Part shown: positions 2 to 11,582 of the stretch, one piece after another
Numbering within the stretch: position 1 is the stretch's first letter
Layout of the letters: every line of letters begins with the position of its first letter
From: a bacterium
GTDB lineage: Bacteria > SZUA-182 > DTGQ01
Assembly (NCBI GenBank): GCA_040752695.1
Contig: JBFMGO010000147.1
Coordinates: forward strand, 1-11,584
DNA length: 11,584 nucleotides
Direction of reading: 5' to 3'
Notes under the pieces: generated by a model
What the model saw: the letters and a program-made list of their open reading frames with translations, nothing else
Databases searched by the model: none
Told to the model about the DNA's origin: nothing
Program-made: the position numbers and the translations under genes

Positions 2-418
2 CACCATCATTGGATAGGTGTCATGGCCCAGGAGGAAGGGTATTATATCGACGTGAAGATCAGTACGACAAGCTACACCTCTATTCATGGTTATCAGGAA
101 GACAGCGTTGCCTGGTTTTATGCCAAAGCTGACAATACCTACAGCTCGCCTCCAGGAATTACCGCAGAATTAGTCAAAGAGGGCACTGCTTATACGCTGG
201 AAGAGCGTTTTGGCATCTCTCTTCAGTTTAACGCCGAAAACCGTATCGGTCAGTGGCAGGATGCAGATGATAATATGCTTGTCTTTAGCTACCTGGATGC
301 TAAGCTGCAAAGCGTTCAGGATGCCTTTGGCCGCACACTTACTTTTCACTATTCAGGGGATCTGATCGATTCGGTTTCAGATTCTGCCGGACGGTCTGTA
401 TCGTATTTTCTGCCTTGA
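2..418 (+). pseudogene. RHS/YD-repeat protein fragment, open off the left edge and apparently truncated at its 3' end
   Basis: The frame is open from base 2 (HHHWIGV precedes the ATG at 23). The translation has RHS-type repeats: QWQDADDNMLVFSY, LQSVQDAFGRTLTFHY, LIDSVSDSAGRSVSY. It stops abruptly (FLP*) after about 3 repeats, with no RHS core end motif or C-terminal toxin domain. Confidence 0.7.
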
Positions 419-524: not shown

Positions 525-1001
525 ATGGAAAGGGATGATCTTCAGCTCCAGCTTAATGAACTCAAGAAACACACCTTTTACGAATTGCTCAACCTGGCTG
601 GAAGAGTATACCTGTTGGTCAAATATTCCGAAAATGTGCAGGTGGGAACCAGGGGGTTTTCCCCTGAGGAAAAAGAGCAGGGACTGGTTCTGGTACTGAA
701 TACAAAAATGCGTTTTACCTGGGATGAGCTTGGAATTTCCGTCAAGCTTGTCTTCGGAGATACACCGCAAAAGTGCTTTATTCCGTCTGACGATATCCTG
801 GCAATCTACTCTCCTGAATTGAATTCGCAGCTCATCATAGGGCCGCAGCAGGTCGTGGAGGCCAATACGACTCCGGCCAAGAGCGAAGAGGCTGCCGGCA
901 GCAGCAGTACGACCAAAGAGATTGAGGAATCTCCGTTCAAGGAGGATGACAGCCAGAAAAACAAGGTCGTCCGAGTTGATTTCCAGAAAAAACGAAAATA
1001 A
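525..1001 (+). CDS. sspB: ClpXP protease specificity-enhancing factor, SspB-like
   Basis: SspB-like core (LVLVLN..FTWDELGISVKLVFGDTPQKCFIPSDDILAIYSPE), a low-complexity acidic linker, and a C-terminal tail KVVRVDFQKKRK resembling SspB ClpX-binding tails. GGAG RBS at 511-514. Confidence 0.75.
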   Translation: MERDDLQLQLNELKKHTFYELLNLAGRVYLLVKYSENVQVGTRGFSPEEKEQGLVLVLNTKMRFTWDELGISVKLVFGDTPQKCFIPSDDILAIYSPELNSQLIIGPQQVVEANTTPAKSEEAAGSSSTTKEIEESPFKEDDSQKNKVVRVDFQKKRK

Positions 1002-1716
1002 AATTATTCGTAAAATCGGGCAGGCTATCGCCGATTTTCAACTGATTCAAGACCAGGATAATATACTGCTGGCCCTTTCAGGAGGAAAGGACAGTCTGGC
1101 CCTGCTGGAAATATTACTTCATCTTCAGAAGCGGGCACCCATAAGGTTTTCCCTGACGGCCTGCACCATCGATGAAGGATTCGGCGGGTTTGAAACCGAG
1201 CGGATTGCCGATCATTGCAACCGGAAAAAGGTGCCCTTCATCCTGAAAAAGGAAAAAATCCTGCACATCATACAGGAAAAAAACCTGTCAGGCCCTCATT
1301 TTTGTTCCTTTTGTGCCCGCCTTCGGCGTGGCACCCTGTATACACTCGCCCGACAGCAGGGATTCAATAAAATCGCTCTTGCCCATCACGCCGATGATTT
1401 CATCGAAACCCTCCTTCTGGATCTTTTCTACGCTGGATCATTATGGAAGATGCCCGTACATCTCGTATCGGAACGCCGTAAAAACACAGTCATTCGGCCT
1501 CTTGTTTACGTATATGAAGAAGAAATCAAGCGCTTTTGCGAAACCAGAAATATCATACCCATCCCGCACTTGTGCCCTTTTCACGAAGGAAGCATCTCAC
1601 GGCGTTCTCAAATGAAGCAGTGGTTGAAGGACCTGGCCCAAACCAACCCGGCTATTAAGGGGAACCTGCTGAGAGCGGTCCTTAAGGGGCAGGGAATCAC
1701 CTGCCTGTATTCTTAA
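976..1716 (+). CDS. ttcA: tRNA 2-thiocytidine(32) synthetase TtcA family protein
   Basis: PP-loop LSGGKDS, CSFCARLRRG, KIALAHHADDFIETLLL, VIRPL and a later Cys (HLCP). The start is most plausibly TTG at 976, overlapping the end of sspB; the ORF track start at 922 is probably too long. Confidence 0.88.
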   Translation: MISRKNENKIIRKIGQAIADFQLIQDQDNILLALSGGKDSLALLEILLHLQKRAPIRFSLTACTIDEGFGGFETERIADHCNRKKVPFILKKEKILHIIQEKNLSGPHFCSFCARLRRGTLYTLARQQGFNKIALAHHADDFIETLLLDLFYAGSLWKMPVHLVSERRKNTVIRPLVYVYEEEIKRFCETRNIIPIPHLCPFHEGSISRRSQMKQWLKDLAQTNPAIKGNLLRAVLKGQGITCLYS

Positions 1717-1749
1717 CCCTTGCCGATATTCTTTTACCGGCACGAAGAT

Positions 1750-3615
1750 TCAGGAATAGTTACCATTATCGATAACAGGCAGCGAGAAGTCCCGGTGCCC
1801 TTTAAACTGGCTCATATATAAGCGGCAATAAAATCCTCGGAGGGCCAGCAGATTTTGATGATTGCCCTGCTCGATAATGCGGCCTCCATTGATGACCAGT
1901 ATCTGGTCGGCATTACGGATAGTGCTTAATCGATGGGCAATTACAAAGCAGGTTCGCCCCTGCATCAACCGCAGCAAGGCCTGTTGGATATGGATTTCAG
2001 TTCGGGTGTCAACGCTGCTGGTAGCTTCGTCAAGGATAAGAATACCAGGATCGGCCAATATGGCACGGGCAATGGCCAGTAATTGTCTTTGTCCCTGGCT
2101 CAAATTGCCGCCTCTTTCTGAGAGGATGGTATGATATCCTTTAGGCAGCCGGCGAATAAATTGATCCGCATTGGCCAATTCGGCAGCGGCGATAACTTCC
2201 TGATCATTGGCGTTAAGTTTTCCATAACGGATGTTTTCCATTACCGAATCGGAGATAAGAAAGGTGTCTTGCAGTACAATTCCCAGTTGACGGCGTAAAC
2301 TTGCCTTCTGAAGATTTCTGATGTCTTGTCCGTCAATAGTGATCTTGCCGGAGTCAATATCGTAGAAACGCATGAGCAGGTTCACAATGGTGGTTTTTCC
2401 TGCCCCTGTCGGCCCGACCAGTGCAAGGGTTTGTCCCGGCTTTGCCTGCATGGTAAAGCCCTGGATCACGGGAGTATCTTTCCGGTAGCCGAACCATACC
2501 TTGTTAAAAATAACCTCTCCACGGACCTTTTGTAATAGTGGTGCATCGGGAGCATCCGCTGGTTCCGATTTTTCATCAGTAATCTCGAAAACACGTTCTG
2601 CGCCGGCCAGGGCTGATTGGACAGCGTTATAGAGATGGGCTACCTGGTTCAAGGGACGTCCGAATTGTTGTGAATAGCTTAAAAAGCTGGCAATGGTACC
2701 AATAGTGGCCAGCCCCTTGACTGCCATCCATCCACCTGCACCGGCGACAGCGGCAAAGCCGAGGTTATTAACCAGGTTCGTAAGGGGCCCCAGAATCAAA
2801 GCATAGATCTGGGCTTTGCCAGCAGCGGCCTGCAAGTTTCGGTTTAACCTTTCAAAATCCTCAAGCATATCCTGTTCGCGGCCATAGGCCTTGACTACGC
2901 GTTCTCCGGTCACGGTTTCCTCAATGAATGAATTTAAAACTCCAAGCCTCTGCTGCTGGTCACGAAATCCTTCGAGGGTATGAGTAGATATCCATCTGGT
3001 AAGAAAGACCATGAGAGGAATCGTGAAAAGGCTTACTATGGCCAATCGAAGATTCAGGCACAGCATCGTCACGGTCACTCCGATCAGTGCCAGAACACCG
3101 GCGATCAACTGAGTGACGCTTTCGTTGAGAATAACGCTGATGTTTTCAACATCATTCGAAAGACGGCTCATCAACTCCCCATGGGGATGACGGTCGATAA
3201 AGCGAAGGGGCAAGGTGTGGACTTTGGCAAAAAGATCGTTTCGTATATCCCGAACAACGCGCTGTGCCACCCCGGCCATTACAGAGGTCTGAAGCCATGT
3301 TGTCAAGGCGGTGATTACAGAGACCAAGAGCATCAAAAGCGAAATCCGAGCCAACCCTTTCAAATTGCCGATGATGAAATATTCGTCAATTGCCCTGCCC
3401 ATAAGGAAGGGGCCAAGCAAGGCAAACCCTGTAGTGGCTCCCAAAAGAAAAACTACGGCCATAAGCCGGATTTGTTGCCTTTTTAAATATACCCCCACAC
3501 GGCGCATGGCAGCGCGAGTATCTTTTGCCTTCTGACCCCGGCCGATCATTCCATGAGCGCCCGGGCCGATAGGGAAACCGAAATTCCCTTGATGACTGGA
3601 TTTATTCCACGTCAT
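1750..3615 (-). CDS. ABC exporter, fused permease/ATP-binding subunit (TM288-like, carries the catalytic Glu and His)
   Basis: N-terminal transmembrane domain; Walker A GPTGAGKT, Q-loop VLQD, non-canonical signature LSQGQ, Walker B LILDEATSSVD, switch IAHR. Overlaps the upstream partner by 4 bp (ATGA, 3612-3615). Confidence 0.95.
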   Translation of the reverse strand: MTWNKSSHQGNFGFPIGPGAHGMIGRGQKAKDTRAAMRRVGVYLKRQQIRLMAVVFLLGATTGFALLGPFLMGRAIDEYFIIGNLKGLARISLLMLLVSVITALTTWLQTSVMAGVAQRVVRDIRNDLFAKVHTLPLRFIDRHPHGELMSRLSNDVENISVILNESVTQLIAGVLALIGVTVTMLCLNLRLAIVSLFTIPLMVFLTRWISTHTLEGFRDQQQRLGVLNSFIEETVTGERVVKAYGREQDMLEDFERLNRNLQAAAGKAQIYALILGPLTNLVNNLGFAAVAGAGGWMAVKGLATIGTIASFLSYSQQFGRPLNQVAHLYNAVQSALAGAERVFEITDEKSEPADAPDAPLLQKVRGEVIFNKVWFGYRKDTPVIQGFTMQAKPGQTLALVGPTGAGKTTIVNLLMRFYDIDSGKITIDGQDIRNLQKASLRRQLGIVLQDTFLISDSVMENIRYGKLNANDQEVIAAAELANADQFIRRLPKGYHTILSERGGNLSQGQRQLLAIARAILADPGILILDEATSSVDTRTEIHIQQALLRLMQGRTCFVIAHRLSTIRNADQILVINGGRIIEQGNHQNLLALRGFYCRLYMSQFKGHRDFSLPVIDNGNYS

Positions 3616-5348
3616 ACGAAATTTGCTCCGTTCCCTAATTGGGATTCATAAATTTCGCGGTAAATGGGACTAAGGATCAGTAATTCCTGATGCGTACCTT
3701 CATTCGTAACGGTGCCGTTGTCCAGCACCAAAATTTTATCAGCCCTCAGGACAGTGCCAAGTCGTTGGGTAATGATAAAACAGGTGCACCCTTTTATGAA
3801 TTTGATCAGGGCATCGTGGATATTCGCTTCGGTCTCAATATCTACTGCACTGGTGCTGTCGTCGAGGATAAGTATGGAGGGTTTGGTAATGATGGCCCGG
3901 GCAAGGGCCAGACGCTGTTTTTGCCCGCCGGAAAGATTTATTCCCCGCTCACCAAGAACCGTATCATAGCCTGCGGGAAATTCAGTGATGAATTCATGTG
4001 CCTGAGCGGCTCTGGCCGCTTCGATTATTTCTTCTTCCGTGGCTTCGGGCCTTCCATAGCAAATATTTTCCCGAATAGTCCCGGAAAAAAGGATAGCCTC
4101 CTGAAGTGTAATGCTGATATGTTTTCGTAAGGATTCCTGTTTTATGTCACGTACATCCACTCCGTCAATCATCACACGTCCTTCGGTTGCATCATAAAAG
4201 CGTGGAAGAAGGTGAACCAGGCTTGACTTGCCTGATCCGGTTGCGCCGATAATGGCCACCGTTTGTCCGGGTTCTACAGTAAAGTTAATATCCCGCAGCC
4301 CCTGGGAATTGCCGTTATAGTTGAAGCAAACGTGTTCGAAAACGACTTTCCCGCGCGGTGAGAAGATATCTACGGCATCGGGCCGGTCGGTTACTTCCGG
4401 TTCTTTATTCAGAATTTCCATAATGCGGCCTGCCGATGCTTCCGCCCGTGATACGCGTATCAAAAGCATACTTACCATGATCAAAGAGAAAAGCATGTGC
4501 AGGATATAGTTAACAAAGGCCATGATCTGTCCTGCCTTTAAAGTTCCCTTCATTACCTGCAGGCCGCCGAACCATATCACTCCGACTATTCCCAGGTTGA
4601 GTGCCAGCATCATGAAGGGCATGACCACTGCCAGTGTCCTGACAGCCCGGATAGTCTGATCCATCAGGTTATCATTTACTTCCCCAAAACGATGTATCTC
4701 ATGATCTTTGCGCACAAAAGCCCTGATGAGGCGAATGCCGGCCAGGTTTTCCTGCATTACCGTATTGAGCCTGTCAAGGCGGCTTTGTACACCGGTGAAA
4801 AGAGGATTCGCCCGCTTAAAAGCCCAGGCCAGTACCATTACCACCAAAGGTCCCAGGATGAGAAGCAGGAAAGACAGTTTGGGACTGGTAATGACCGCCA
4901 TAAATATACTGCCCGTCAGCATCAAGGGAGCCCTTACCAGGATCCTGAGCATGATGAGTACGGATTCTTGCACCTGAGTCACATCATTCGTAAGCCGGGT
5001 TACTAATTGTCCGGTTCCCAGATCGTCCAGATTGCCGAAGGAGAGGGACTGAACCTTGCGAAAGAGCTCACGCCGAAGATCCGCACCAAACCCCTGGGAC
5101 ACCTCAACTGCAAAAACCGTATTCCCCGCGCCCCCCAAAAAACCAACCAGGGCTAATCCAACCATAAGCAATCCCGTACGGACAACTACGGCCATATGAA
5201 GCCGGGCAATTCCCACATCAACGATTCGCTGCATGAGGCGCGGCTGCACAAGGTCCATGGCCACCTCGACCAGCATCAGCAAAGGGCTTAGAAGAATCAA
5301 CTTCCAATAGGGCTGTAAGAATCTGATTAATTTTCGTAGAGAACCCAT
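3612..5348 (-). CDS. ABC exporter, fused permease/ATP-binding subunit (TM287-like, degenerate site)
   Basis: Transmembrane domain plus NBD: Walker A GATGSGKS, signature LSGGQKQR, Walker B ILILDDSTSAVD (Glu replaced by Asp), switch ITQR (His replaced by Gln). ATG 5348 sits 6 nt after AGGA (5358-5355); ATG 5354 is an alternative start. Confidence 0.95.
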   Translation of the reverse strand: MGSLRKLIRFLQPYWKLILLSPLLMLVEVAMDLVQPRLMQRIVDVGIARLHMAVVVRTGLLMVGLALVGFLGGAGNTVFAVEVSQGFGADLRRELFRKVQSLSFGNLDDLGTGQLVTRLTNDVTQVQESVLIMLRILVRAPLMLTGSIFMAVITSPKLSFLLLILGPLVVMVLAWAFKRANPLFTGVQSRLDRLNTVMQENLAGIRLIRAFVRKDHEIHRFGEVNDNLMDQTIRAVRTLAVVMPFMMLALNLGIVGVIWFGGLQVMKGTLKAGQIMAFVNYILHMLFSLIMVSMLLIRVSRAEASAGRIMEILNKEPEVTDRPDAVDIFSPRGKVVFEHVCFNYNGNSQGLRDINFTVEPGQTVAIIGATGSGKSSLVHLLPRFYDATEGRVMIDGVDVRDIKQESLRKHISITLQEAILFSGTIRENICYGRPEATEEEIIEAARAAQAHEFITEFPAGYDTVLGERGINLSGGQKQRLALARAIITKPSILILDDSTSAVDIETEANIHDALIKFIKGCTCFIITQRLGTVLRADKILVLDNGTVTNEGTHQELLILSPIYREIYESQLGNGANFV

Positions 5349-5531
5349 ATGCATTCCTGTTATTGGTCAGGCTCGTGTCTGGATTCCGCAAGGAGCCAAA
5401 AGAGTTTGGATTAACGAATAGAAGACACAGAGGAGGCTCGTCGTTGAGCGAATGACTGTCAGCTTTCAGGCATACATGCAAATACATTATACCCCTCTCG
5501 TTTATGCATGTGCCGTTTACATACGCCCTTT

Positions 5532-7682
5532 TCAGTCCTGCCGGAAAAGCAGGATATAACGCTGTGGTATGAACTGCCGTGCATCGGCCAAGTGAAATCC
5601 ATAATATTTCAGTTGAGCGATAATAAGCTCTTTTGCAATACCTGATCCGAAATAGGGTATAGTTGGAGGATGCGTAATCGCATTATCGACAATCACCAGC
5701 CTTCCTCCCTTTCTGAGCGCTTTCTTCAGGCTGGCGATAAATTCGTCCTTTACAGATTCAATTGAAGCTATGTAGACCGCATGGTACAGGGAACACAAGA
5801 AAACCGTATCCACACTGCCGGCAGGAAGGCAGGCGTAATTTAAGCGTGCCAGCACAGTTTGTATGTTCAATCCGTATTTATCACTTATTTTTCTGACATA
5901 GGCAAGGGCTTCTTTATTGACTTCAAGAGAGTATACTCTGCCTGAAATGCCTACCATCCGGGAAAACTGGAAAGAGAAGAATCCATAACCGCATCCTACG
6001 TCTGCAACTGCCTCACCCTCCTGGATATTCAGATAATCGAGCATCTTGCCGGTTTTCTCCCAACTGTCGCGATTCGGATTATTAAATACAATGTATTCGT
6101 TCCAATCATTCAATTGATCGAAACTCACTTCATTTCCGGAATATTCATAAACAACCTCATGAATCCGTTTTGCAGCGAAATCATCATCAGCGCCAGGTTC
6201 CTCCGGGTCCGGCTTAGCCAGATCATACTTTATTCTGATATACTTTTTTAACAGCGCAAAGTCATTGCATGCCAGATGATGGTAGTATTCAGCACTGAAT
6301 TTATCTCCAAGGATCTCTTTGCACTCTTCTTCCGATGACATGAGAATCCGGCAGAACCATGCAAAAGCAGTGTATTCGTCACCGATTCTCTCCTTCGGTA
6401 TCAATTCCTCATATGCCGTCAGCGCAGCTTCGGCCGCATCCCTGTCTTTTTTCCGGAGTGCATCATAAAAAAGCCTGGCTGCCCTCTTCCCCAATAATGT
6501 ATAGCCTTGTGACGAAGTACCGATCATACGGTAGCGGACTAAGGAGGATCTGGATGTGATGTTGATAGCATCAGGAGTTTTTGGATCTGCAAAAATTACC
6601 GCTCTTGAATGCCCGGCGTCTGATTCCAGCGGCAGCCTGTCCGAGGGTTTGAATTCGAGGACATAACGCTGAGGGGTAAATTGATACTGGGCAGTGAGTT
6701 TAAAGCCGTAGTGCCATAACTGGCCGATAATCAGATGCCGTGATATGTATGGCCCGTGATATGGCAAGTTATCGCCTTCGACCAGATCGTTGTCCACGAT
6801 CACAAGGCGTCCGTCCTGTTTAAGGCTGTTCTTTATACTTTTGATGAAAAGATCCCTTTCCCCGTCGGTACAGGCAGCATAAATAATATGATATAATGAA
6901 CACATATAGACAAGGTCAACTTTGATTGAAGGCTCCATGCCCAGTCCGTCCGGCTGTGATTCAATTACATCGACATTATTGATTCCGTATTTTCTGATGT
7001 AGTCTTTCAGATAGTTCAGATGGCGCTTATTTGTTTCAATGGCATAGACATGCCCGCTTTCACCCACAATATCGGCAAATTTGAATGTGAAATATCCCGG
7101 ACCGCAACCGACATCAGCCACACTGTCCCCTTTGCGAAGATTGAGAGTTCTGATATTTTCAGAGGTCTTATCCCAGCGTGTACGGTCCGGATTATTGAAA
7201 AGAATAAAATCTTCCAGAAAGCGGAGTTTCACTTTAGCTTCAGGGTCGTTTTTCTCGTTTTCTATGAAGTGGTATTTTCTCTGAAGGTATTCCTTTAAAT
7301 TAGAAAAATTATCCTTCGACAACGTATCAAACCAACTGGTAACAAGAGAATGTGAAAAAAAATGGGGCCGTTCCTCTTCCATGGTCATTAAATACTTGCA
7401 TATCCAGAGCAGAGCGGTATATTCACCGCCGAAGTTTTCATTCGGGATAATATGGTCATAAATATCAATTGCTCGTAACAAAGATATTCGCTTTCCGCTT
7501 TCCAGGTAGTCCAGGATCAGTCCGGCAGATTCCTTTCCTCCCTCTGTAATATCGAATGAGTCAAGACTTCCTATATGTACAAGGGATACTTTTGAACCGA
7601 CATGAACGGTAACTGCGCAAGCTGGATTTACAGTCCCTGCGGACATTCGGGAACTTTCACGCTTGCAGGGTGTATTTTCCAT
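5532..7682 (-). CDS. Tandem two-module class I SAM-dependent methyltransferase (each module = helical N-terminal domain + Rossmann MTase)
   Basis: Two SAM-binding motif I copies (VADVGCGPG; VADVGCGYG), each followed by VY(A/S)xE, CSLYH, GRLVIVDN and PQRY. The start is uncertain: ATG 7682 follows a GGAGG, and the longest ORF starts at 7724. Confidence 0.88.
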   Translation of the reverse strand: MENTPCKRESSRMSAGTVNPACAVTVHVGSKVSLVHIGSLDSFDITEGGKESAGLILDYLESGKRISLLRAIDIYDHIIPNENFGGEYTALLWICKYLMTMEEERPHFFSHSLVTSWFDTLSKDNFSNLKEYLQRKYHFIENEKNDPEAKVKLRFLEDFILFNNPDRTRWDKTSENIRTLNLRKGDSVADVGCGPGYFTFKFADIVGESGHVYAIETNKRHLNYLKDYIRKYGINNVDVIESQPDGLGMEPSIKVDLVYMCSLYHIIYAACTDGERDLFIKSIKNSLKQDGRLVIVDNDLVEGDNLPYHGPYISRHLIIGQLWHYGFKLTAQYQFTPQRYVLEFKPSDRLPLESDAGHSRAVIFADPKTPDAINITSRSSLVRYRMIGTSSQGYTLLGKRAARLFYDALRKKDRDAAEAALTAYEELIPKERIGDEYTAFAWFCRILMSSEEECKEILGDKFSAEYYHHLACNDFALLKKYIRIKYDLAKPDPEEPGADDDFAAKRIHEVVYEYSGNEVSFDQLNDWNEYIVFNNPNRDSWEKTGKMLDYLNIQEGEAVADVGCGYGFFSFQFSRMVGISGRVYSLEVNKEALAYVRKISDKYGLNIQTVLARLNYACLPAGSVDTVFLCSLYHAVYIASIESVKDEFIASLKKALRKGGRLVIVDNAITHPPTIPYFGSGIAKELIIAQLKYYGFHLADARQFIPQRYILLFRQD

Positions 7683-8217
7683 TCTCTTCCATTCCTCCAT
7701 TGCGGTATATATGGATACACTCATGAGTTACTTCCAACAGTGACATCCCATCAATACGGATCATATAGTCACACGATCCCGCATAATATGGCTCACGCTC
7801 TTGCATAAGCTGTTCTATTCGCTTCGGCATATTGGCTGTTCTCAGTAAGGGCCTGTCAATCATAAGCGGCTTTTCTTTTTTCAGATGATGGAGAATAGTA
7901 TTGAACGATGCTTTCAGCCAAAGCACGGTTCCTCTTTCTCTTAATAAACGCATGTTATTGAAATTCAATACAATGCCGCCCCCTGTTGAAATCACATAAT
8001 TATCAAGGCTGAAAATTTCCCTGACCATATCCGATTCCAGTTTCCTGAAATATTTTTCGCCATAATTTTCAAAAATAGCGCTTATACTCATAGAGCACCG
8101 TTTTTTTATTTCTTCATCAATGTCGATAAAATCAAGATGCAGCATTTCAGCAATCAATTTGCCGGCAGATGTCTTTCCGGTACCCATAAAACCTGTAAGT
8201 ACAATACCTTCTTTCAC
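7657..8217 (-). CDS. aroK: Shikimate kinase family protein
   Basis: Walker A GFMGTGKT, DIDEEI, IFENYGEKYFRKLE, STGGG, RPLL, REPYY. GTG start with AGAGGAG upstream. Confidence 0.9.
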   Translation of the reverse strand: MKEGIVLTGFMGTGKTSAGKLIAEMLHLDFIDIDEEIKKRCSMSISAIFENYGEKYFRKLESDMVREIFSLDNYVISTGGGIVLNFNNMRLLRERGTVLWLKASFNTILHHLKKEKPLMIDRPLLRTANMPKRIEQLMQEREPYYAGSCDYMIRIDGMSLLEVTHECIHIYRNGGMEENGKYTLQA

Positions 8218-8286
8218 TATTAAATCGATCTCCTCTAAACACTCTCAACTCCTTCTGGCTATTCGAATAGTCTAAGGGTGTATTTT
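7667..8286. repeat. 12-bp direct repeat AGGGTGTATTTT (7667-7678 and 8275-8286) bracketing aroK
   Basis: Exact match read from the sequence; both copies are followed within 1-2 nt by CATT (an ATG on the minus strand). Confidence 0.6.
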
Positions 8287-8297
8287 TTCATTATCTT

Positions 8298-10793
8298 TTA
8301 CTTCTCCAGGCCTGCTTTTGGCAAAGTATCGATCCCCATCCGGAGGCCGGCCGCATGTGCTATGTTAGCTGCATGATTCAGATTTACAATAAACCGGTCT
8401 TCCGAGTAAATCCTGTAATTATTCCTGTATAGCCACGGTGTAAAGTTGACCGTTAACACATTCGCACCGGCATTGAGTCCCATGAGTTGCCCTCCGGAGT
8501 GAATGCATTCAAGGGCGCTGACTGCCGGAATAAGACAATCCTTCAATCCGATCCGCAGCAGGGCAATAATATTCAAGGCAAGATTGATGTCGCCGGGCGG
8601 ATTGCTCTGAAACGGCGTCCCCTTATTGGGTATAAATGGGGCAGTACTTGCGAAATCCGGGTGAAATCCGAAGATAAAACGAAGATCCGAAATAAGGTTT
8701 TCCCATGACTGACCGGGAAGCCCTGCAATATTTCCTGTCCCAATCCTCATTCCCGCTTGCCGTATCCACTGCATGCATTTGATTCTCAGATCCAGAGCCG
8801 TATGTACCATACGTTCGTACCCTCTGGCATCGGACGTCTCGAATTTCAGGATAAATGACCCGGCCCCAAACCGGGCAAACCGCTGATACGTTTCCTTATT
8901 ACGTTCTCCTACGCAGAGAATCACTTCTGCCCCCAGATTACGAACAACAGCCGGGACGACTTCCTCCAGGTACGGATCGCACAGGGGGTCCTGTCCCGCC
9001 TGTAAAAACACTGTCGTAATGCCCGTCTCGGTTATGCTCGCAGCAGCAGACAGGATGGTATCCGGATCGAGGCGGAACCTCTCCAGTGTGCTGTTGCAGC
9101 ATCGCATAGCACAATAATCGCAGTTTTTCCGGCAGATATTTGAAATCTCAATGACGCCCCGCAATTGAACCACATCCTTGAAATATCTCTTTCTGACCGC
9201 CCGTGCATGTACAAACAATTCCTGCTGACGATCTCCTCTGGCAGTTAACAGAAACAGGAGCTCTTGATCGTTCATATTCGGTAAATCCCAGTCATTACTG
9301 TCCGGCATGCTGCACTCGGTGGTTTGTCCTCTAAACATTTTCCATCCCAACGCATCTTCCGGTTTATTATCCGCATAGGGATGCAAAGGGCCCCTGGCAT
9401 AAGCATCGCTTGCAAAAGGCTTGAATTCATTGGAATAGAATTGTTCAGCCACTTCATCGGCAACAAAGGCGCCCAATCCGGTAAGGCAAACGCTGGTATC
9501 ATTCTCCTTTATCAGTCCGAACTGTTTCAATTTTCCAACCTTTTTACGGAACACGCTGTCAAAGGGAAGGCCCGTTACTTTCTCGAAGTATGCCTTTTTT
9601 ATCTCACTGTTTTTAAGAGGCAATATTACCGCCCACCGTACTTGCTGCTCCAGGTCACGGATATAGCCGCGGTTAACAGGCAGCCTGCCTGCTTCGATCA
9701 TTTCGTAATACTCGCTGAAATTCTGTGTATTAAGAGCAAACCTGTCCCTCAGACTGCTGAATGCGGTTAAGCCAAATCCAATCTGGTCATACAGCATGCA
9801 GCACTGGTTGTAGGCATAGTGGGAAAAGTGTTTCTTTTCTTTTGAATAAACGCGGCGGAGGTTCTCATGAAAACCATATGTTTGGAGGATTTCGGAAGCA
9901 ATGTGTTTCATCATCATGGTCTCGTCGAAGGAAGGAAAACTGGCCGGATTATCCTCCCGCAATTTGAGAATGTCCCCCTGCAGGTCTCCATAAGCCAGTA
10001 CTTTCAGACGGTAAAGCTGTATTTCATCGACAGGCAGGATAACCGCTTTCTCGATAACATCTATCCAATTTTCAATTGTCTCTTCGGGATGGCCGTAGAT
10101 GAATTCAATATTGAGCTGGTATCCGAACCGCCTGCTGTTCTCAACCGACTCGATCGCCGTTTGAACATCATGAGGCCGGTTCATCACCTTCAGTACGCTG
10201 TCATTCAATGACTGCACACCTATGGTCAGACGATTCACTCCATAGTCTTTCATAATTTGCAGTCTTTGCAGGCCCTTTTTCCCTACAAGTGATCCGGGGT
10301 CCACATCGTAATTGAATTGCCGGCAGAAGGTAAAGTCGATGCGCCTGCTGAAAAATTCGAGAAACCGGGTCAATTGCTCCGGGGTAAGATAGGTCGGTGT
10401 GCCTCCGCCGATAAGGATGGATCTGGGTTTGACCTTATCTACACCCAGCCGCCGCATATATATATCCATCTCTTTTTCCAATGCATCCAGGTAACGGTTC
10501 TTCTCTTCGTTCTGCAGGCCAAGCTTGCCGGGATAATGACAGAAGGTACAACGCTGCCTGCAAAAGGGAAAATGCACATATATATCAACCAATCCGTCGT
10601 ATGGGAGTGTATAACCGTTAAATAGTTCTTCTTCCAGGATCCTCGGATATCGGGTAATCGGAGGATAATGAACCGATGGTACAAAATCCCCGTTAAGACA
10701 GATTAAGCCCTCTGCCATCAGTCTTTTTATTTCATCCAGACGTTGTCTGGCCTTTATCAGTAATCCCGAATATCGAGCTTTTAGAGCAGCCAT
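8298..10793 (-). CDS. Double radical SAM protein: N-terminal HemN-like domain fused to a C-terminal HydE/PylB/BioB-like domain
   Basis: Domain 1: IYVHFPFCRQRCTFC (10562-10539), IGGGTPT, RLTIGVQS, IYGHP, IGFGLTAFS and a HemN_C-like tail (LTGLGAFVADEV). Domain 2: LRGVIEISNICRKNCDYC (9134-9111), TVFLQAGQDP, LKFETSD, GNIAGLPGQ, APFIPNKGTP, AGANVLTVNFTP, YRNNYRIY. AAGGAAGG RBS upstream of the ATG. Confidence 0.9.
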   Translation of the reverse strand: MAALKARYSGLLIKARQRLDEIKRLMAEGLICLNGDFVPSVHYPPITRYPRILEEELFNGYTLPYDGLVDIYVHFPFCRQRCTFCHYPGKLGLQNEEKNRYLDALEKEMDIYMRRLGVDKVKPRSILIGGGTPTYLTPEQLTRFLEFFSRRIDFTFCRQFNYDVDPGSLVGKKGLQRLQIMKDYGVNRLTIGVQSLNDSVLKVMNRPHDVQTAIESVENSRRFGYQLNIEFIYGHPEETIENWIDVIEKAVILPVDEIQLYRLKVLAYGDLQGDILKLREDNPASFPSFDETMMMKHIASEILQTYGFHENLRRVYSKEKKHFSHYAYNQCCMLYDQIGFGLTAFSSLRDRFALNTQNFSEYYEMIEAGRLPVNRGYIRDLEQQVRWAVILPLKNSEIKKAYFEKVTGLPFDSVFRKKVGKLKQFGLIKENDTSVCLTGLGAFVADEVAEQFYSNEFKPFASDAYARGPLHPYADNKPEDALGWKMFRGQTTECSMPDSNDWDLPNMNDQELLFLLTARGDRQQELFVHARAVRKRYFKDVVQLRGVIEISNICRKNCDYCAMRCCNSTLERFRLDPDTILSAAASITETGITTVFLQAGQDPLCDPYLEEVVPAVVRNLGAEVILCVGERNKETYQRFARFGAGSFILKFETSDARGYERMVHTALDLRIKCMQWIRQAGMRIGTGNIAGLPGQSWENLISDLRFIFGFHPDFASTAPFIPNKGTPFQSNPPGDINLALNIIALLRIGLKDCLIPAVSALECIHSGGQLMGLNAGANVLTVNFTPWLYRNNYRIYSEDRFIVNLNHAANIAHAAGLRMGIDTLPKAGLEK

Positions 10794-10852
10794 GCTAAAT
10801 CCCTTCCTTTCGCTACGGTCTTAGAGATTATGTCTCATATTTATTACTCAAA

Positions 10853-10881
10853 AAAGTAAATATCTTACATCCTAATTTCAA
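10853..10881 (-). promoter_or_regulatory. Candidate sigma70 promoter for the radical SAM operon
   Basis: Minus-strand TTGAAA (10881-10876), 17-nt spacer, TACTTT (10858-10853), about 60 nt upstream of the ATG. The region is AT-rich, so a chance match is possible. Confidence 0.3.
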
Positions 10882-10945
10882 CATGAAAAGCAATAATCAA
10901 TCGGTTATTTCAAAAAATATTGCCATATAATCTAAATTGATACTC

Positions 10946-10969
10946 AGTAATTAATGTACAATAATTACT
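10946..10969. promoter_or_regulatory. 24-bp near-perfect palindrome, candidate transcription factor operator
   Basis: AGTAATTAATGTACAATAATTACT: 11 of 12 pairs are complementary, centred on TGTACA. Confidence 0.45.
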
Positions 10970-11262
10970 CTTAATGTTAAATTAAACGACATGCATCCTC
11001 AAAGATAAAAGAGATTCCGTAGCTTTTGAAAAAAAGAGCTCATAATCTGAGGGGATTCCTCCTTGAGCCAAAAGAAAGAAAGGGGAGGAGAGGTGCTTGA
11101 AAAGAGCTTGAAAGAGTGCAAGATGCAGAAGGGAAAAGAGATCTCAGTAGCAAAAATCCAGAATAGTGCCGATTTTCTCCCTTGAGGGAGAAAGAAAATG
11201 TTACAGACAAGGAAAAGCGGGTACGATAACAATCGTCCGGTATAGTCCGAACCACATAAGTC

Positions 11263-11372: not shown

Positions 11373-11582
11373 ATGAAAAGATTTACATGGTTCGACTGGC
11401 TGGCTTTAACCCTGGTCATTATCGGCGCCCTGAACTGGGGGCTGGTAGGGTTCTTTAACTATAACCTGGTCAACGCCCTGTTTGGTTCTGCGCTCGGACG
11501 AGTAATCTATTCAATTGTCGGATTGACCGGGCTCTATACCATATTCCTGGGACTGTCAAAAATCGCGCGAAAAGAACCGTAA
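11373..11582 (+). CDS. DUF378 family small membrane protein (YuzA-like)
   Basis: Family pattern LVIIGALNWGLVGFFNYNLVNALFG...RVIYSIVGLTGLY; GAGGAGGT RBS. The stop overlaps a following ATG (TAATG, 11580-11584), suggesting a coupled downstream gene outside the window. Confidence 0.92.
   Translation: MKRFTWFDWLALTLVIIGALNWGLVGFFNYNLVNALFGSALGRVIYSIVGLTGLYTIFLGLSKIARKEP

What the first reader, a model, noticed from the sequence alone, without database searches (positions are those of the whole stretch)
1750..10793. Uncharacterised biosynthetic-type operon: double radical SAM + kinase + double methyltransferase + heterodimeric ABC exporter
Seen: five co-oriented genes with gaps of 80 nt, an overlap, about 180 nt and an overlap, encoding four SAM-using catalytic domains in two polypeptides, a small-molecule kinase and an exporter. 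Known: HemN-like (class C) radical SAM enzymes methylate or cyclopropanate natural products (NosN, TbtI, YtkT, Jaw5), and in CC-1065 biosynthesis the HemN-like C10P works with a methyltransferase, C10Q. HydE/PylB-type enzymes act on amino-acid-derived substrates. Inference: this is a compact pathway that makes or modifies an exported metabolite, possibly with paired radical SAM/MTase steps. It has no NRPS, PKS or evident RiPP precursor, so rule-based cluster finders could miss it. I do not recognise this gene set as a described pathway.
Basis: partly seen in the sequence, partly recalled or inferred. Interest (0 to 1): 0.85.

Follow-up and report, generated by a model that had tools for sequence, protein, structure and literature searches.

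The report
Mobile radical-SAM alkyl-transfer gene cassette
Five genes inserted as one block in this bacterium encode a fused pair of radical-SAM enzymes, a shikimate-kinase-like protein, a doubled methyltransferase and an exporter; the radical-SAM and methyltransferase genes travel together from methanogens to cyanobacteria, match no pathway found in print, and likely build a modified form of the methyl donor SAM that the methyltransferase would then use to make an exported or cell-surface product.

Summary
The five co-oriented genes are real. They lie in a 9.5-kb insertion between ttcA and a DUF378 gene, where three relatives have the empty site. The HydE-like domain is optional (17 of 29) and is neither HydE nor PylB. 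The exporter is interchangeable, and the kinase follows only the fused form.

Most diverse MT relatives carry a signal peptide and sit beside an EamA/APC carrier. The window's copy belongs to a cytoplasmic clade that lacks both (one evolutionary split). In three genomes an unrelated membrane-anchored FkbM-like MT takes the MT's place. Best reading (0.4): the HemN-like domain makes a SAM-sulfonium adduct of a small, possibly shikimate-derived acceptor, and the MT releases SAH from it, as in C10P/C10Q or CmoA/CmoB. Substrate, product and co-transcription are untested. No describing paper was found. This scan noted the same cassette before on other DNA (six notes).

The parts
1717..11246 (.). Inserted block (about 9.5 kb) between ttcA and the DUF378 gene
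   Evidence: ttcA stop to DUF378 start is 9656 nt here, 513 and 358 nt in two same-genus genomes; a same-family genome also has the empty site; homology resumes at 11247
8298..10793 (-). Fused radical SAM gene, 831 aa (HemN-like + HydE-like)
   Evidence: model pLDDT 92 with a low-confidence linker at 488-496; 10 other fused relatives among the 120 listed; split into two genes in most loci
9354..10793 (-). HemN-like (class C type) domain, residues 1-480; the constant core enzyme
   Evidence: 1OLT match TM(target) 0.82; dual-SAM site residues Y72, R188, E230, Q259, K264 invariant in 27 sequences
10539..10562 (-). First CxxxCxxC motif (C78, C82, C85)
   Evidence: sequence; invariant in alignment A3
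9798..9818 (-). Family-specific YAxNQCC motif (residues 326-332), with invariant basic residues R262, K264, K296, R313, R314, R351 elsewhere in the domain
   Evidence: role unknown, an anionic substrate is inferred
8394..9275 (-). HydE-like full TIM-barrel domain, residues about 507-800; optional in relatives
   Evidence: TIGR03956 236.5 bits against cut-off 254.6; HydE M224 and M291 are F714 and T781
9111..9134 (-). Second CxxxCxxC motif (C554, C558, C561)
   Evidence: sequence; invariant in 39 HydE-like sequences
7657..8217 (-). Shikimate-kinase-like protein of a small subfamily tied to the fused form
   Evidence: PF01202; only 6 relatives at E<=1e-40, one seen in cassette L002, two sharing contig lengths with fused radical SAM proteins
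5532..7682 (-). Tandem capped class I methyltransferase-fold protein (716 aa; two units of helical cap + Rossmann domain), no signal peptide in this copy
3612..5354 (-). ABC exporter half, TM287-like (Walker B reads DDSTS, switch reads ITQRL)
   Evidence: 601.7 bits to 3QF4 chain A; motifs read from the sequence, their meaning (degenerate site) recalled
1750..3615 (-). ABC exporter half, TM288-like partner (DEATS, IAHRL)
   Evidence: subunit label inferred from the pairing and the motifs
10794..11246 (-). A+T-rich upstream region of the block; strong RBS (GGAAGGG) before the 10793 start
   Evidence: promoter-like sites in the window do not exceed shuffles
525..1716 (+). Host flank: SspB-like gene (525-1001) and ttcA (922-1716); not part of the cassette
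   Evidence: conserved in relatives
11373..11582 (+). Host flank: DUF378 gene; not part of the cassette

Best explanation
This is a horizontally acquired five-gene block whose HemN-like domain likely uses two SAM molecules to attach a SAM-methylene radical to a small unsaturated acceptor, giving a predicted SAM-sulfonium adduct (an 'extended SAM') that the methyltransferase-fold protein would resolve by transferring the enlarged alkyl group and releasing SAH, with the ABC pair probably exporting the product. Shown: gene content, insertion, folds, retained SAM-binding residues, strict linkage of HemN-like and MT genes, export signals on most MT relatives. Inferred from class C chemistry: the methylene radical and its addition. 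Inferred from gene neighbourhoods: that the HydE-like domain makes the acceptor from a shikimate-pathway metabolite with help from the kinase, and that in the exported-MT clade an EamA/APC carrier moves the adduct out to the MT. Whether the transfer is intramolecular (ring closure, as C10Q) or to a second molecule (as CmoB) is not resolved.
For: (1) Linkage: HemN-like ortholog in 27 of 29 MT loci with >=3 kb on both sides, 18 of 18 groups at 80% identity; the two misses are broken copies. Reverse search by HemN-like profile in 1201 scored genomes gave 8 new ones: 4 have the family MT adjacent, 1 has it 135 kb away, 3 have a membrane-anchored FkbM-like MT instead. (2) The HemN-like domain keeps the NocN/HemN second-SAM residues Tyr34, Arg153, Asp196, Ser225, Arg230 as Y72, R188, E230, Q259, K264, all invariant in 27 sequences (PMC12871812 passages). 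(3) The MT keeps motif I (D204 in 77 of 78 units) and the acidic residue after beta2 (76 of 78) in diverse, mostly exported relatives. (4) 38 of 42 representatives with an intact N-terminus carry a hydrophobic signal stretch. In loci of >=7 kb, 15 of 16 with an exported MT have an EamA or APC carrier and 0 of 24 with a cytoplasmic MT do. Both carrier families include known SAM carriers (PMC3104491 passages). One molecule carrying both the SAM handle and the HemN-made group explains one carrier, an external MT and the strict linkage. (5) Precedents: C10P/C10Q (PMC6050322) and CmoA/CmoB (PMC10491745). (6) Shikimate link: the kinase subfamily follows the fused form; a DAHP synthase lies beside the cassette in 4 loci, 3 with HydE-like and 1 cut; DASS or Gate carriers occur in 8 loci, none with HydE-like in the DNA fetched.
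Against: No substrate, product or activity is known. The signal-peptide/carrier match is one evolutionary event (1 independent pair, p = 1), and the window's own MT is cytoplasmic, where ordinary SAM is available. The C10Q catalytic His position holds His in only 54 of 78 MT units; the invariant residue is Tyr282/651. Replacement by an FkbM-like enzyme is hard to square with a specific ring closure and fits plain O-methylation equally well. NocN Tyr96 is Leu127 here. EamA and APC families carry many other solutes. The shikimate link is patchy: the archaeal loci have HydE-like but neither kinase nor DAHP synthase; many HydE-less loci (L026 group, L036, L037, L047, L050, L030) have no DASS or Gate carrier; the four DAHP loci come from one lineage. 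The C10P adduct is unstable, a problem for export.
Confidence: 0.4

Rival explanations
1. Two separate methylations with ordinary SAM: the HemN-like domain C-methylates a small precursor and releases it, and the MT then O-, N- or S-methylates it. In exported forms the carrier supplies SAM itself, or a SAM/SAH exchange, to the periplasm.
For: Class C enzymes NosN, TbtI and ChuW act without a partner MT. Each MT unit has a canonical SAM site and is closest to an ordinary small MT, 3DH0 (Z 20.5, rmsd 2.1 over 186 residues). EamA-type SAM/SAH antiporters exist. An FkbM-like replacement suggests plain methyl transfer.
Against: Exported forms would need both SAM and the HemN-like product outside, yet usually only one small-solute carrier gene is linked. 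It does not explain a 140-residue cap found only on this MT family (55 of 56 long hits).
Confidence: 0.3
2. The end target is the cell envelope (glycan, lipid or surface protein), not a secreted metabolite; the cassette supplies an alkyl donor to a membrane-anchored transferase. This overlaps with either chemistry above.
For: Anchored or exported MTs; FkbM-like replacements, three in tandem in L102; two further anchored MTs beside the family MT in L048; glycosyltransferase, acyltransferase, MBOAT, Spy-like, lipoprotein, CARDB-domain and FHA-ABC/kinase neighbours.
Against: The window has no glycan gene and a cytoplasmic MT. Hosts have very different envelopes (methanogens, Bacillota, cyanobacteria) yet HemN-like proteins stay 51-78% identical. 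Glycan loci are common insertion sites; no enrichment test was run.
Confidence: 0.17
3. Detoxification of a metalloid or other toxic compound by methylation and efflux (ArsM/ArsS-like logic).
For: Invariant vicinal cysteines C331-C332 in the HemN-like domain, frequent Cys in the MT (58 of 78 and 52 of 78 units), weak arsenite-methyltransferase hits (68.5 bits against cut-off 263), multidrug-type exporter.
Against: No arsenic-, mercury- or tellurite-resistance gene among the 61 + 21 neighbours scanned against Pfam; MT cysteines are not invariant; the shikimate genes are unexplained.
Confidence: 0.06
4. Cofactor or amino-acid maturation by known enzymes (HydE for [FeFe]-hydrogenase, PylB for pyrrolysine, HemN/HemW/HutW for haem), or a chance run of unrelated genes.
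For: Best family scores are to HydE, PylB and HemN; the HydE-like score is near the cut-off.
Against: All scores are below cut-off; the HydE iron-binding methionines are replaced; no HydG in the 96.6%-complete genome; strict linkage across domains of life and a clean insertion rule out chance.
Confidence: 0.03

Closest known systems
C10P/C10Q two-component cyclopropanase of CC-1065 (also YtkT/YtkU); PMC6050322
   Same: A HemN-like dual-SAM radical enzyme linked to a class I MT with a DxGxGxG-type motif; the window's units have a His about 75 residues after motif I, similar in spacing to C10Q D61/H138.
   Different: No NRPS or pyrroloindole cluster; the MT has a unique helical cap, is often doubled and usually exported; the His is not invariant; an extra HydE-like enzyme. 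Host names searched in that paper's supplement gave no hit. Sequence likeness to C10P/C10Q was not tested.
Class C radical SAM methylases NocN/NosN, TbtI, ChuW, Jaw5 and HemN (PDB 9P2U, 1OLT)
   Same: Fold, HemN_C domain, second-SAM site residues.
   Different: About 22% identity to HemN; below all NCBIfam cut-offs; own motifs (PSVHYPP, YAxNQCC, many invariant Arg/Lys); no RiPP or haem context.
CmoA/CmoB and TglE/TglF carboxy-SAM systems; PMC10491745
   Same: Proposed logic: one enzyme extends the SAM methyl group, an MT-fold enzyme transfers it; a shikimate-pathway metabolite (prephenate) feeds CmoA.
   Different: CmoA is a non-radical MT-fold enzyme; here the maker would be a radical SAM enzyme. 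The likeness is by logic only.
HydE (Thermotoga maritima, 3IIZ, 5FEW) and PylB (3T7V)
   Same: Full TIM-barrel radical SAM fold (TM target 0.86 and 0.82), about 33% and 26% identity; R54, E58, Q107, Y303, Y306 positions kept (numbering read off the alignment).
   Different: M224 and M291 replaced; R159 is Lys; no HydG in the genome; no pyl genes seen in the loci; fused to the HemN-like domain here.
TM287/TM288 heterodimeric ABC exporter (3QF4)
   Same: 602 bits for the 580-aa half; one half with degenerate motifs.
   Different: Substrate unknown; only 25-40% identical to the ABC pairs in other cassettes, so a generic exporter recruited separately.
EamA-type SAM/SAH carriers of Chlamydia (CTL843) and Rickettsia (RP076); PMC3104491
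   Same: Same family as the carrier beside exported MTs in relatives.
   Different: Not in the window; family membership only, no sequence comparison with those carriers was made.

Membership tests
Radical SAM superfamily (both domains) | CxxxCxxC motif and TIM-barrel fold | tested here: met
   C78/82/85 and C554/558/561 invariant; folds
HemN-like / class C radical SAM enzymes | HemN_C domain and second SAM site (HemN Tyr56 = NocN Tyr34; NocN Arg153, Asp196, Ser225, Arg230) | tested here: met
   PF06969; Y72, R188, E230, Q259, K264 invariant; NocN Tyr96 is Leu127
HemN-like / class C radical SAM enzymes | SAM-methylene radical added to an sp2 carbon | not testable with these tools
   needs reconstituted enzyme and substrate
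HemN, HemW, ChuW/HutW, HemZ, STM4012 equivalogs | NCBIfam curated cut-off | tested here: not met
   156/325, 144/205, 127/400, 118/321, 157/380 bits
HydE | TIGR03956 cut-off | tested here: not met
   236.5 against 254.6; relatives 242.5 and 203
HydE | Conserved M224 and M291 (PMC10114646) | tested here: not met
   F714 in 28 of 28 subtype A (Met in 11 of 11 subtype B); T781 in 38 of 39
HydE | HydG in the same genome | tested here: not met
   no TIGR03955 match in G000, 96.6% complete; control rang in 4 of 14. HydF not searched.
PylB | TIGR03910 cut-off | tested here: not met
   149 against 348 bits
C10P/C10Q cyclopropanase | Linked HemN-like enzyme and class I MT with SAM motif | tested here: met
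C10P/C10Q cyclopropanase | Catalytic His of the MT (C10Q H138) | tested here: inconclusive
   H279 and H648 present, His in 54 of 78 units; equivalence rests on spacing only
C10P/C10Q cyclopropanase | CC-1065/yatakemycin-type cluster supplying the pyrroloindole substrate | tested here: not met
   no such genes in the window or among neighbours scanned
C10P/C10Q cyclopropanase | SAM-substrate adduct turned over by the MT | not testable with these tools
   biochemistry needed
Shikimate kinase (AroK type) | P-loop and shikimate-binding residues (D34, R58, GGG 79-81, late Arg; roles recalled) | tested here: met
   invariant in 7 sequences and matched in PDB shikimate kinases
Shikimate kinase (AroK type) | NCBIfam cut-off / activity on shikimate | tested here: inconclusive
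   best 174.8 against 204; activity untested
TM287/288-type heterodimeric ABC exporter | Two TMD-NBD halves, one degenerate site | tested here: met
   motifs read
RiPP cluster | Conserved precursor peptide | tested here: inconclusive
   1938 small ORFs compared across loci; only a 70-aa protein in 5 loci of the exported clade recurs, none in the window's clade; a distant precursor cannot be excluded
MADS defence system (mad2) | Specific match to mad2 and the other mad genes | tested here: not met
   152 bits over two domains, but unrelated small MTs score 52-88 bits per domain; no PADLOC hit for the radical SAM or kinase genes

The most novel reading that the evidence does not exclude
Prokaryotes have an undescribed route to SAM-type alkylation outside the cytoplasm: a radical SAM enzyme converts SAM into an extended sulfonium donor, an EamA/APC carrier exports it, and interchangeable exported methyltransferase-fold enzymes use it. 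The window holds a derived, cytoplasmic, fused version that draws its precursor from the shikimate pathway and pumps out the product.
Probability: 0.25. Interest if true: 0.85.

Novelty: new variant of a known kind. Interest (0 to 1): 0.62.

Why it matters
Two uncharacterised radical SAM subfamilies and a capped MT family are shared at 50-75% identity by methanogens, gut Bacillota, cyanobacteria and a Bradyrhizobium plasmid, and no paper describing them was found. If the MT works on a radical-made SAM adduct, this extends C10P/C10Q and carboxy-SAM chemistry to a compact mobile pathway, and it would explain how signal-peptide-bearing methyltransferases get a donor outside the cytoplasm. The window's fused, cytoplasmic, self-contained version is a convenient one to express. 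Named carriers exist (Calothrix sp. 336/3, Bradyrhizobium sp. ISRA443, Methanoculleus).

Tried and rejected
Complex prediction of the HemN-like domain with MT unit 1: no answer, score 0.00 against mark 0.32; no evidence either way. Sequencing runs: none was listed, so expression is untested. Rfam on the window and six loci: no riboswitch, only a tRNA and intron pieces in other loci. Promoter scan: 21 sites against 18.4 +/- 4.1 in shuffles; no terminator-like site in the 177-nt gap. Repeats: no array and no clear boundary repeat. Viral contigs: no MT relative. PADLOC mad2 hit rejected as generic. HydE, PylB, HemN, HemW, HutW and STM4012 membership rejected. The MT hit in relative G018 is a generic 222-aa MT without the cap. 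Pfam did not recognise the FkbM-like proteins; that label rests on the Atlas and on recalled motifs. My recollection that plant Golgi SAM transporters are EamA proteins was wrong: the abstract calls them major facilitators, so it was dropped. Cluster-member look-up could not be made, so organism names come only. The structure search of the whole MT model tested only the Rossmann part; the fold of the cap was not tested alone. Literature searches with no hit; the library lacks most subscription journals.

Full report
OBSERVATION. The window is a whole contig (C147) of a 6.05-Mb genome, 96.6% complete, from a phylum with 20 genomes held. Five minus-strand ORFs lie as described: an 831-aa double radical SAM protein (10793-8298), a 186-aa kinase (8217-7657), a tandem methyltransferase (MT; 7682-5532 as the 716-aa database call, ORF open to 7724) and two ABC halves (5354-3612, 3615-1750). 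Pfam, NCBIfam, PDB and predicted folds agree on the domains.

IT IS ONE INSERTION. In two same-genus genomes ttcA is followed by the DUF378 gene after 513 and 358 nt; here the gap is 9656 nt. A same-family genome also has the empty site. The HemN-like ortholog was not found in the other 19 genomes of the phylum. The MT ortholog was not found in 60 other genomes; the one hit is a generic 222-aa MT. The ABC half has no match above 36% in the same-genus genomes; one same-family genome has a 50% match at another site. GC3 of the kinase (0.40) and MT (0.45) is below the genome mean of 0.55 +/- 0.06; the ABC genes (0.53) look host-like. Gain here is the simpler reading; loss in three relatives is not excluded.

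WHAT IS CONSERVED. The MT has 778 hits and the HemN-like domain 1175 at the thresholds used; the best 120 of each are 50-70% and 59-78% identical. Named hosts include Methanoculleus, Methanothrix, Eisenbergiella, Roseburia, Calothrix sp. 336/3, Desmonostoc, Methylomirabilis and Verrucomicrobiota. Of 87 MT loci, many short, 61 show the HemN-like and 36 the HydE-like gene. Among the 29 with at least 3 kb on both sides, HemN-like is in 27, HydE-like in 17, the kinase ortholog in 1 and a heterodimeric ABC pair in 4 (a looser threshold finds such pairs in 11 loci overall). The two misses, L005 and L006, are broken copies; grouped at 80% MT identity the counts are 18 of 18 and 12 of 18. The reverse search with a HemN-like profile rang in 8 of 401 genomes of the cyanobacterial phylum, 2 of 399 in the class of L002 and 1 of 401 in the phylum of L001, each count including the centre: the cassette is rare and patchy. 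Of the 8 new genomes, 4 have the family MT adjacent, 1 has the cassette split over 135 kb, and 3 lack the family MT. Transporters are interchangeable: ABC-2, MacB/HlyD, FHA-ABC, heterodimeric ABC, EamA, APC, DASS, Gate. The window's ABC pair is TM287/288-like (602 bits) and only 25-40% identical to pairs in other cassettes. No conserved precursor peptide was found.

TWO ARCHITECTURES. The MT unit is a roughly 140-residue helical cap plus a Rossmann domain closest to the uncharacterised 3DH0 (Z 20.5, rmsd 2.1). The cap hits 107 clusters among 1.84 billion representatives; 55 of the 56 hits of 330 aa or more carry the MT domain, and 38 of the 42 with an intact N-terminus have a hydrophobic signal stretch by a Kyte-Doolittle rule, not SignalP. 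In the loci the score is bimodal. On a tree of 51 HemN-like proteins (60 full-length, thinned at 90% identity), among the 40 rows with loci of 7 kb or more and an MT, 15 of 16 exported-type loci have an EamA or APC carrier and 0 of 24 cytoplasmic-type loci do. This is a single split: one independent pair, p = 1. The window falls in the cytoplasmic group, nearest to methanogen copies (75%) and Bacillota locus L002, with weak support, so no donor is named. The three genomes without the family MT keep HemN-like, HydE-like and EamA genes and carry membrane-anchored proteins that the Atlas places with FkbM-type MTs (score 0.96, TM 0.72/0.82; Pfam blank). All 5 copies in those genomes lie within 7 kb of the HemN-like gene, and 5 small genomes of the phylum without it have none (their kinship and completeness are not given). 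EamA and amino-acid-permease families both include SAM carriers (PMC3104491, passages).

THE ENZYMES. The HemN-like domain keeps the second-SAM site described for NocN and HemN: Tyr34, Arg153, Asp196, Ser225 and Arg230 map to Y72, R188, E230, Q259 and K264, invariant in 27 sequences; Tyr96 is Leu; the catalytic Tyr276 lies beyond the aligned part (PMC12871812, passages). It scores below every named family. Its own invariants, YAxNQCC and several Arg/Lys, suggest an anionic substrate (inference). The HydE-like domain misses the HydE cut-off, replaces M224 and M291 (PMC10114646, passages), and the genome has no HydG. Two subtypes (28 and 11 sequences) fill the same slot. In 78 diverse MT units motif I and the acidic residue after beta2 are kept, Tyr282/651 is invariant, and the His that might match C10Q H138 is in 54. 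The kinase keeps the shikimate-site residues (roles recalled). Only 6 relatives reach E <= 1e-40: one is the kinase of cassette L002, two share longest-contig lengths (12004, 85353) with fused radical SAM proteins, which is a proxy and not a view of the locus, and three are on short contigs. In the L002 genome it is an extra copy, another kinase lying beside aroC. In G000 the only other PF01202 hit scores best as Desulfovibrio-type homoserine kinase, below cut-off, so 'extra copy' is not shown here. A DAHP synthase adjoins the cassette in 4 loci of one lineage, 3 with HydE-like and 1 cut. DASS or Gate carriers occur in 8 loci, none with HydE-like in the DNA fetched, 3 of them cut on one side. 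Against this link, archaeal loci have HydE-like without either gene, and many HydE-less loci have no such carrier.

MECHANISM. Class C chemistry adds a SAM-derived methylene radical to an sp2 carbon; C10P stops at the SAM adduct and C10Q releases SAH (PMC6050322, passages; PMC10114718, part 1 of 6 and passages). CmoB transfers an extended group from carboxy-SAM (PMC10491745, passages). An MT that sits outside the cytoplasm, keeps its SAM site, is strictly linked to a cytoplasmic HemN-like enzyme and has one small-solute carrier is most simply served by a product that carries the SAM handle with it. I put this at 0.4, two independent methylations with plain SAM at 0.3, an envelope target as the main purpose at 0.17 (overlapping), detoxification at 0.06 and known cofactor maturation or chance at 0.03. 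All chemistry is inferred.

WHAT IS KNOWN. It works like C10P/C10Q or CmoA/CmoB, but is a member of neither; it is not HydE, PylB, HemN, HemW or MADS. Five searches for this gene set found no paper; one search listed 15 papers on HemN-like enzymes, none naming it in title or abstract start. The C10P/C10Q supplement was searched for five host names with no hit, and only the start of its Table 1 was seen. Subscription journals and preprint supplements are not covered. Six earlier AI notes of this scan describe the same cassette on other DNA; they are unchecked and not independent support. I had seen the linkage and the signal peptides before reading them. Not in their short texts: the empty-site insertion, the kinase subfamily and DAHP/DASS pattern, the FkbM-like replacement, the one-split caveat and the residue tests.

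VERDICT. Real, mobile and undescribed; a new variant of radical SAM/MT pathways, with a bolder extracytoplasmic-donor reading at about 0.25. Interest 0.62.

Noticed in passing
window 2-418 (+): Open-ended ORF that looks like a fragment of a YD/RHS-repeat protein (recalled likeness; no Pfam hit) and stops abruptly at 418; relatives have other genes upstream of the SspB-like gene, so this is a second variable site.
   Followed up: partly
L005 4426-14101 (Ca. Methanoperedens): Broken cassette (31-aa HemN-like remnant, MT cut at 235 aa) inside a cluster with squalene-hopene-cyclase-like genes, a PqqD-like small protein (by eye), TauE, a SPASM radical SAM, UbiA and a B12 radical SAM gene.
   Followed up: no
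L039 17203-17421, L078 2520-2726, L083 3827-4033, L086 3052-3136: Conserved 70-aa protein (FRARVFYHWKKP...ERHGFAMG) beside the exported-type cassette; no convincing Pfam family.
   Followed up: partly
L002, L021, L036, L055, L066, L067 (Bacillota-type) and L004, L098, L100, L101 (cyanobacterial): The cassette recurs beside an FHA-domain ABC transporter, Ser/Thr kinases and PP2C or PP2C-like genes in both clades, hinting at phosphorylation control of export.
   Followed up: no
G438 (L101 8993-10444 and L108 6585-9480): Cassette split by rearrangement into HemN-like + FHA-ABC and Spy-like + HydE-like + MT, 135 kb apart, all intact; rule-based cluster finders would miss it.
   Followed up: yes
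L107 528-1145 (G000 C23) and L111 894-1391: A kinase type scoring best as Desulfovibrio homoserine kinase is the only other PF01202 hit in G000; each of three relatives has a single hit of similar score, and a similar-looking kinase lies beside aroC in G062; this type may serve as the housekeeping shikimate kinase.
   Followed up: partly
L114 / L113 (G000 C62, G002 C13): Chorismate synthase of G000 and G002 is a long divergent form (about 450 aa) unlike that of the same-genus G001 (389 aa).
   Followed up: no
L103 3342-8816: Two B12-type radical SAM-like genes, each followed by a small ORF, next to the cassette in a low-GC genome of the cyanobacterial phylum.
   Followed up: no
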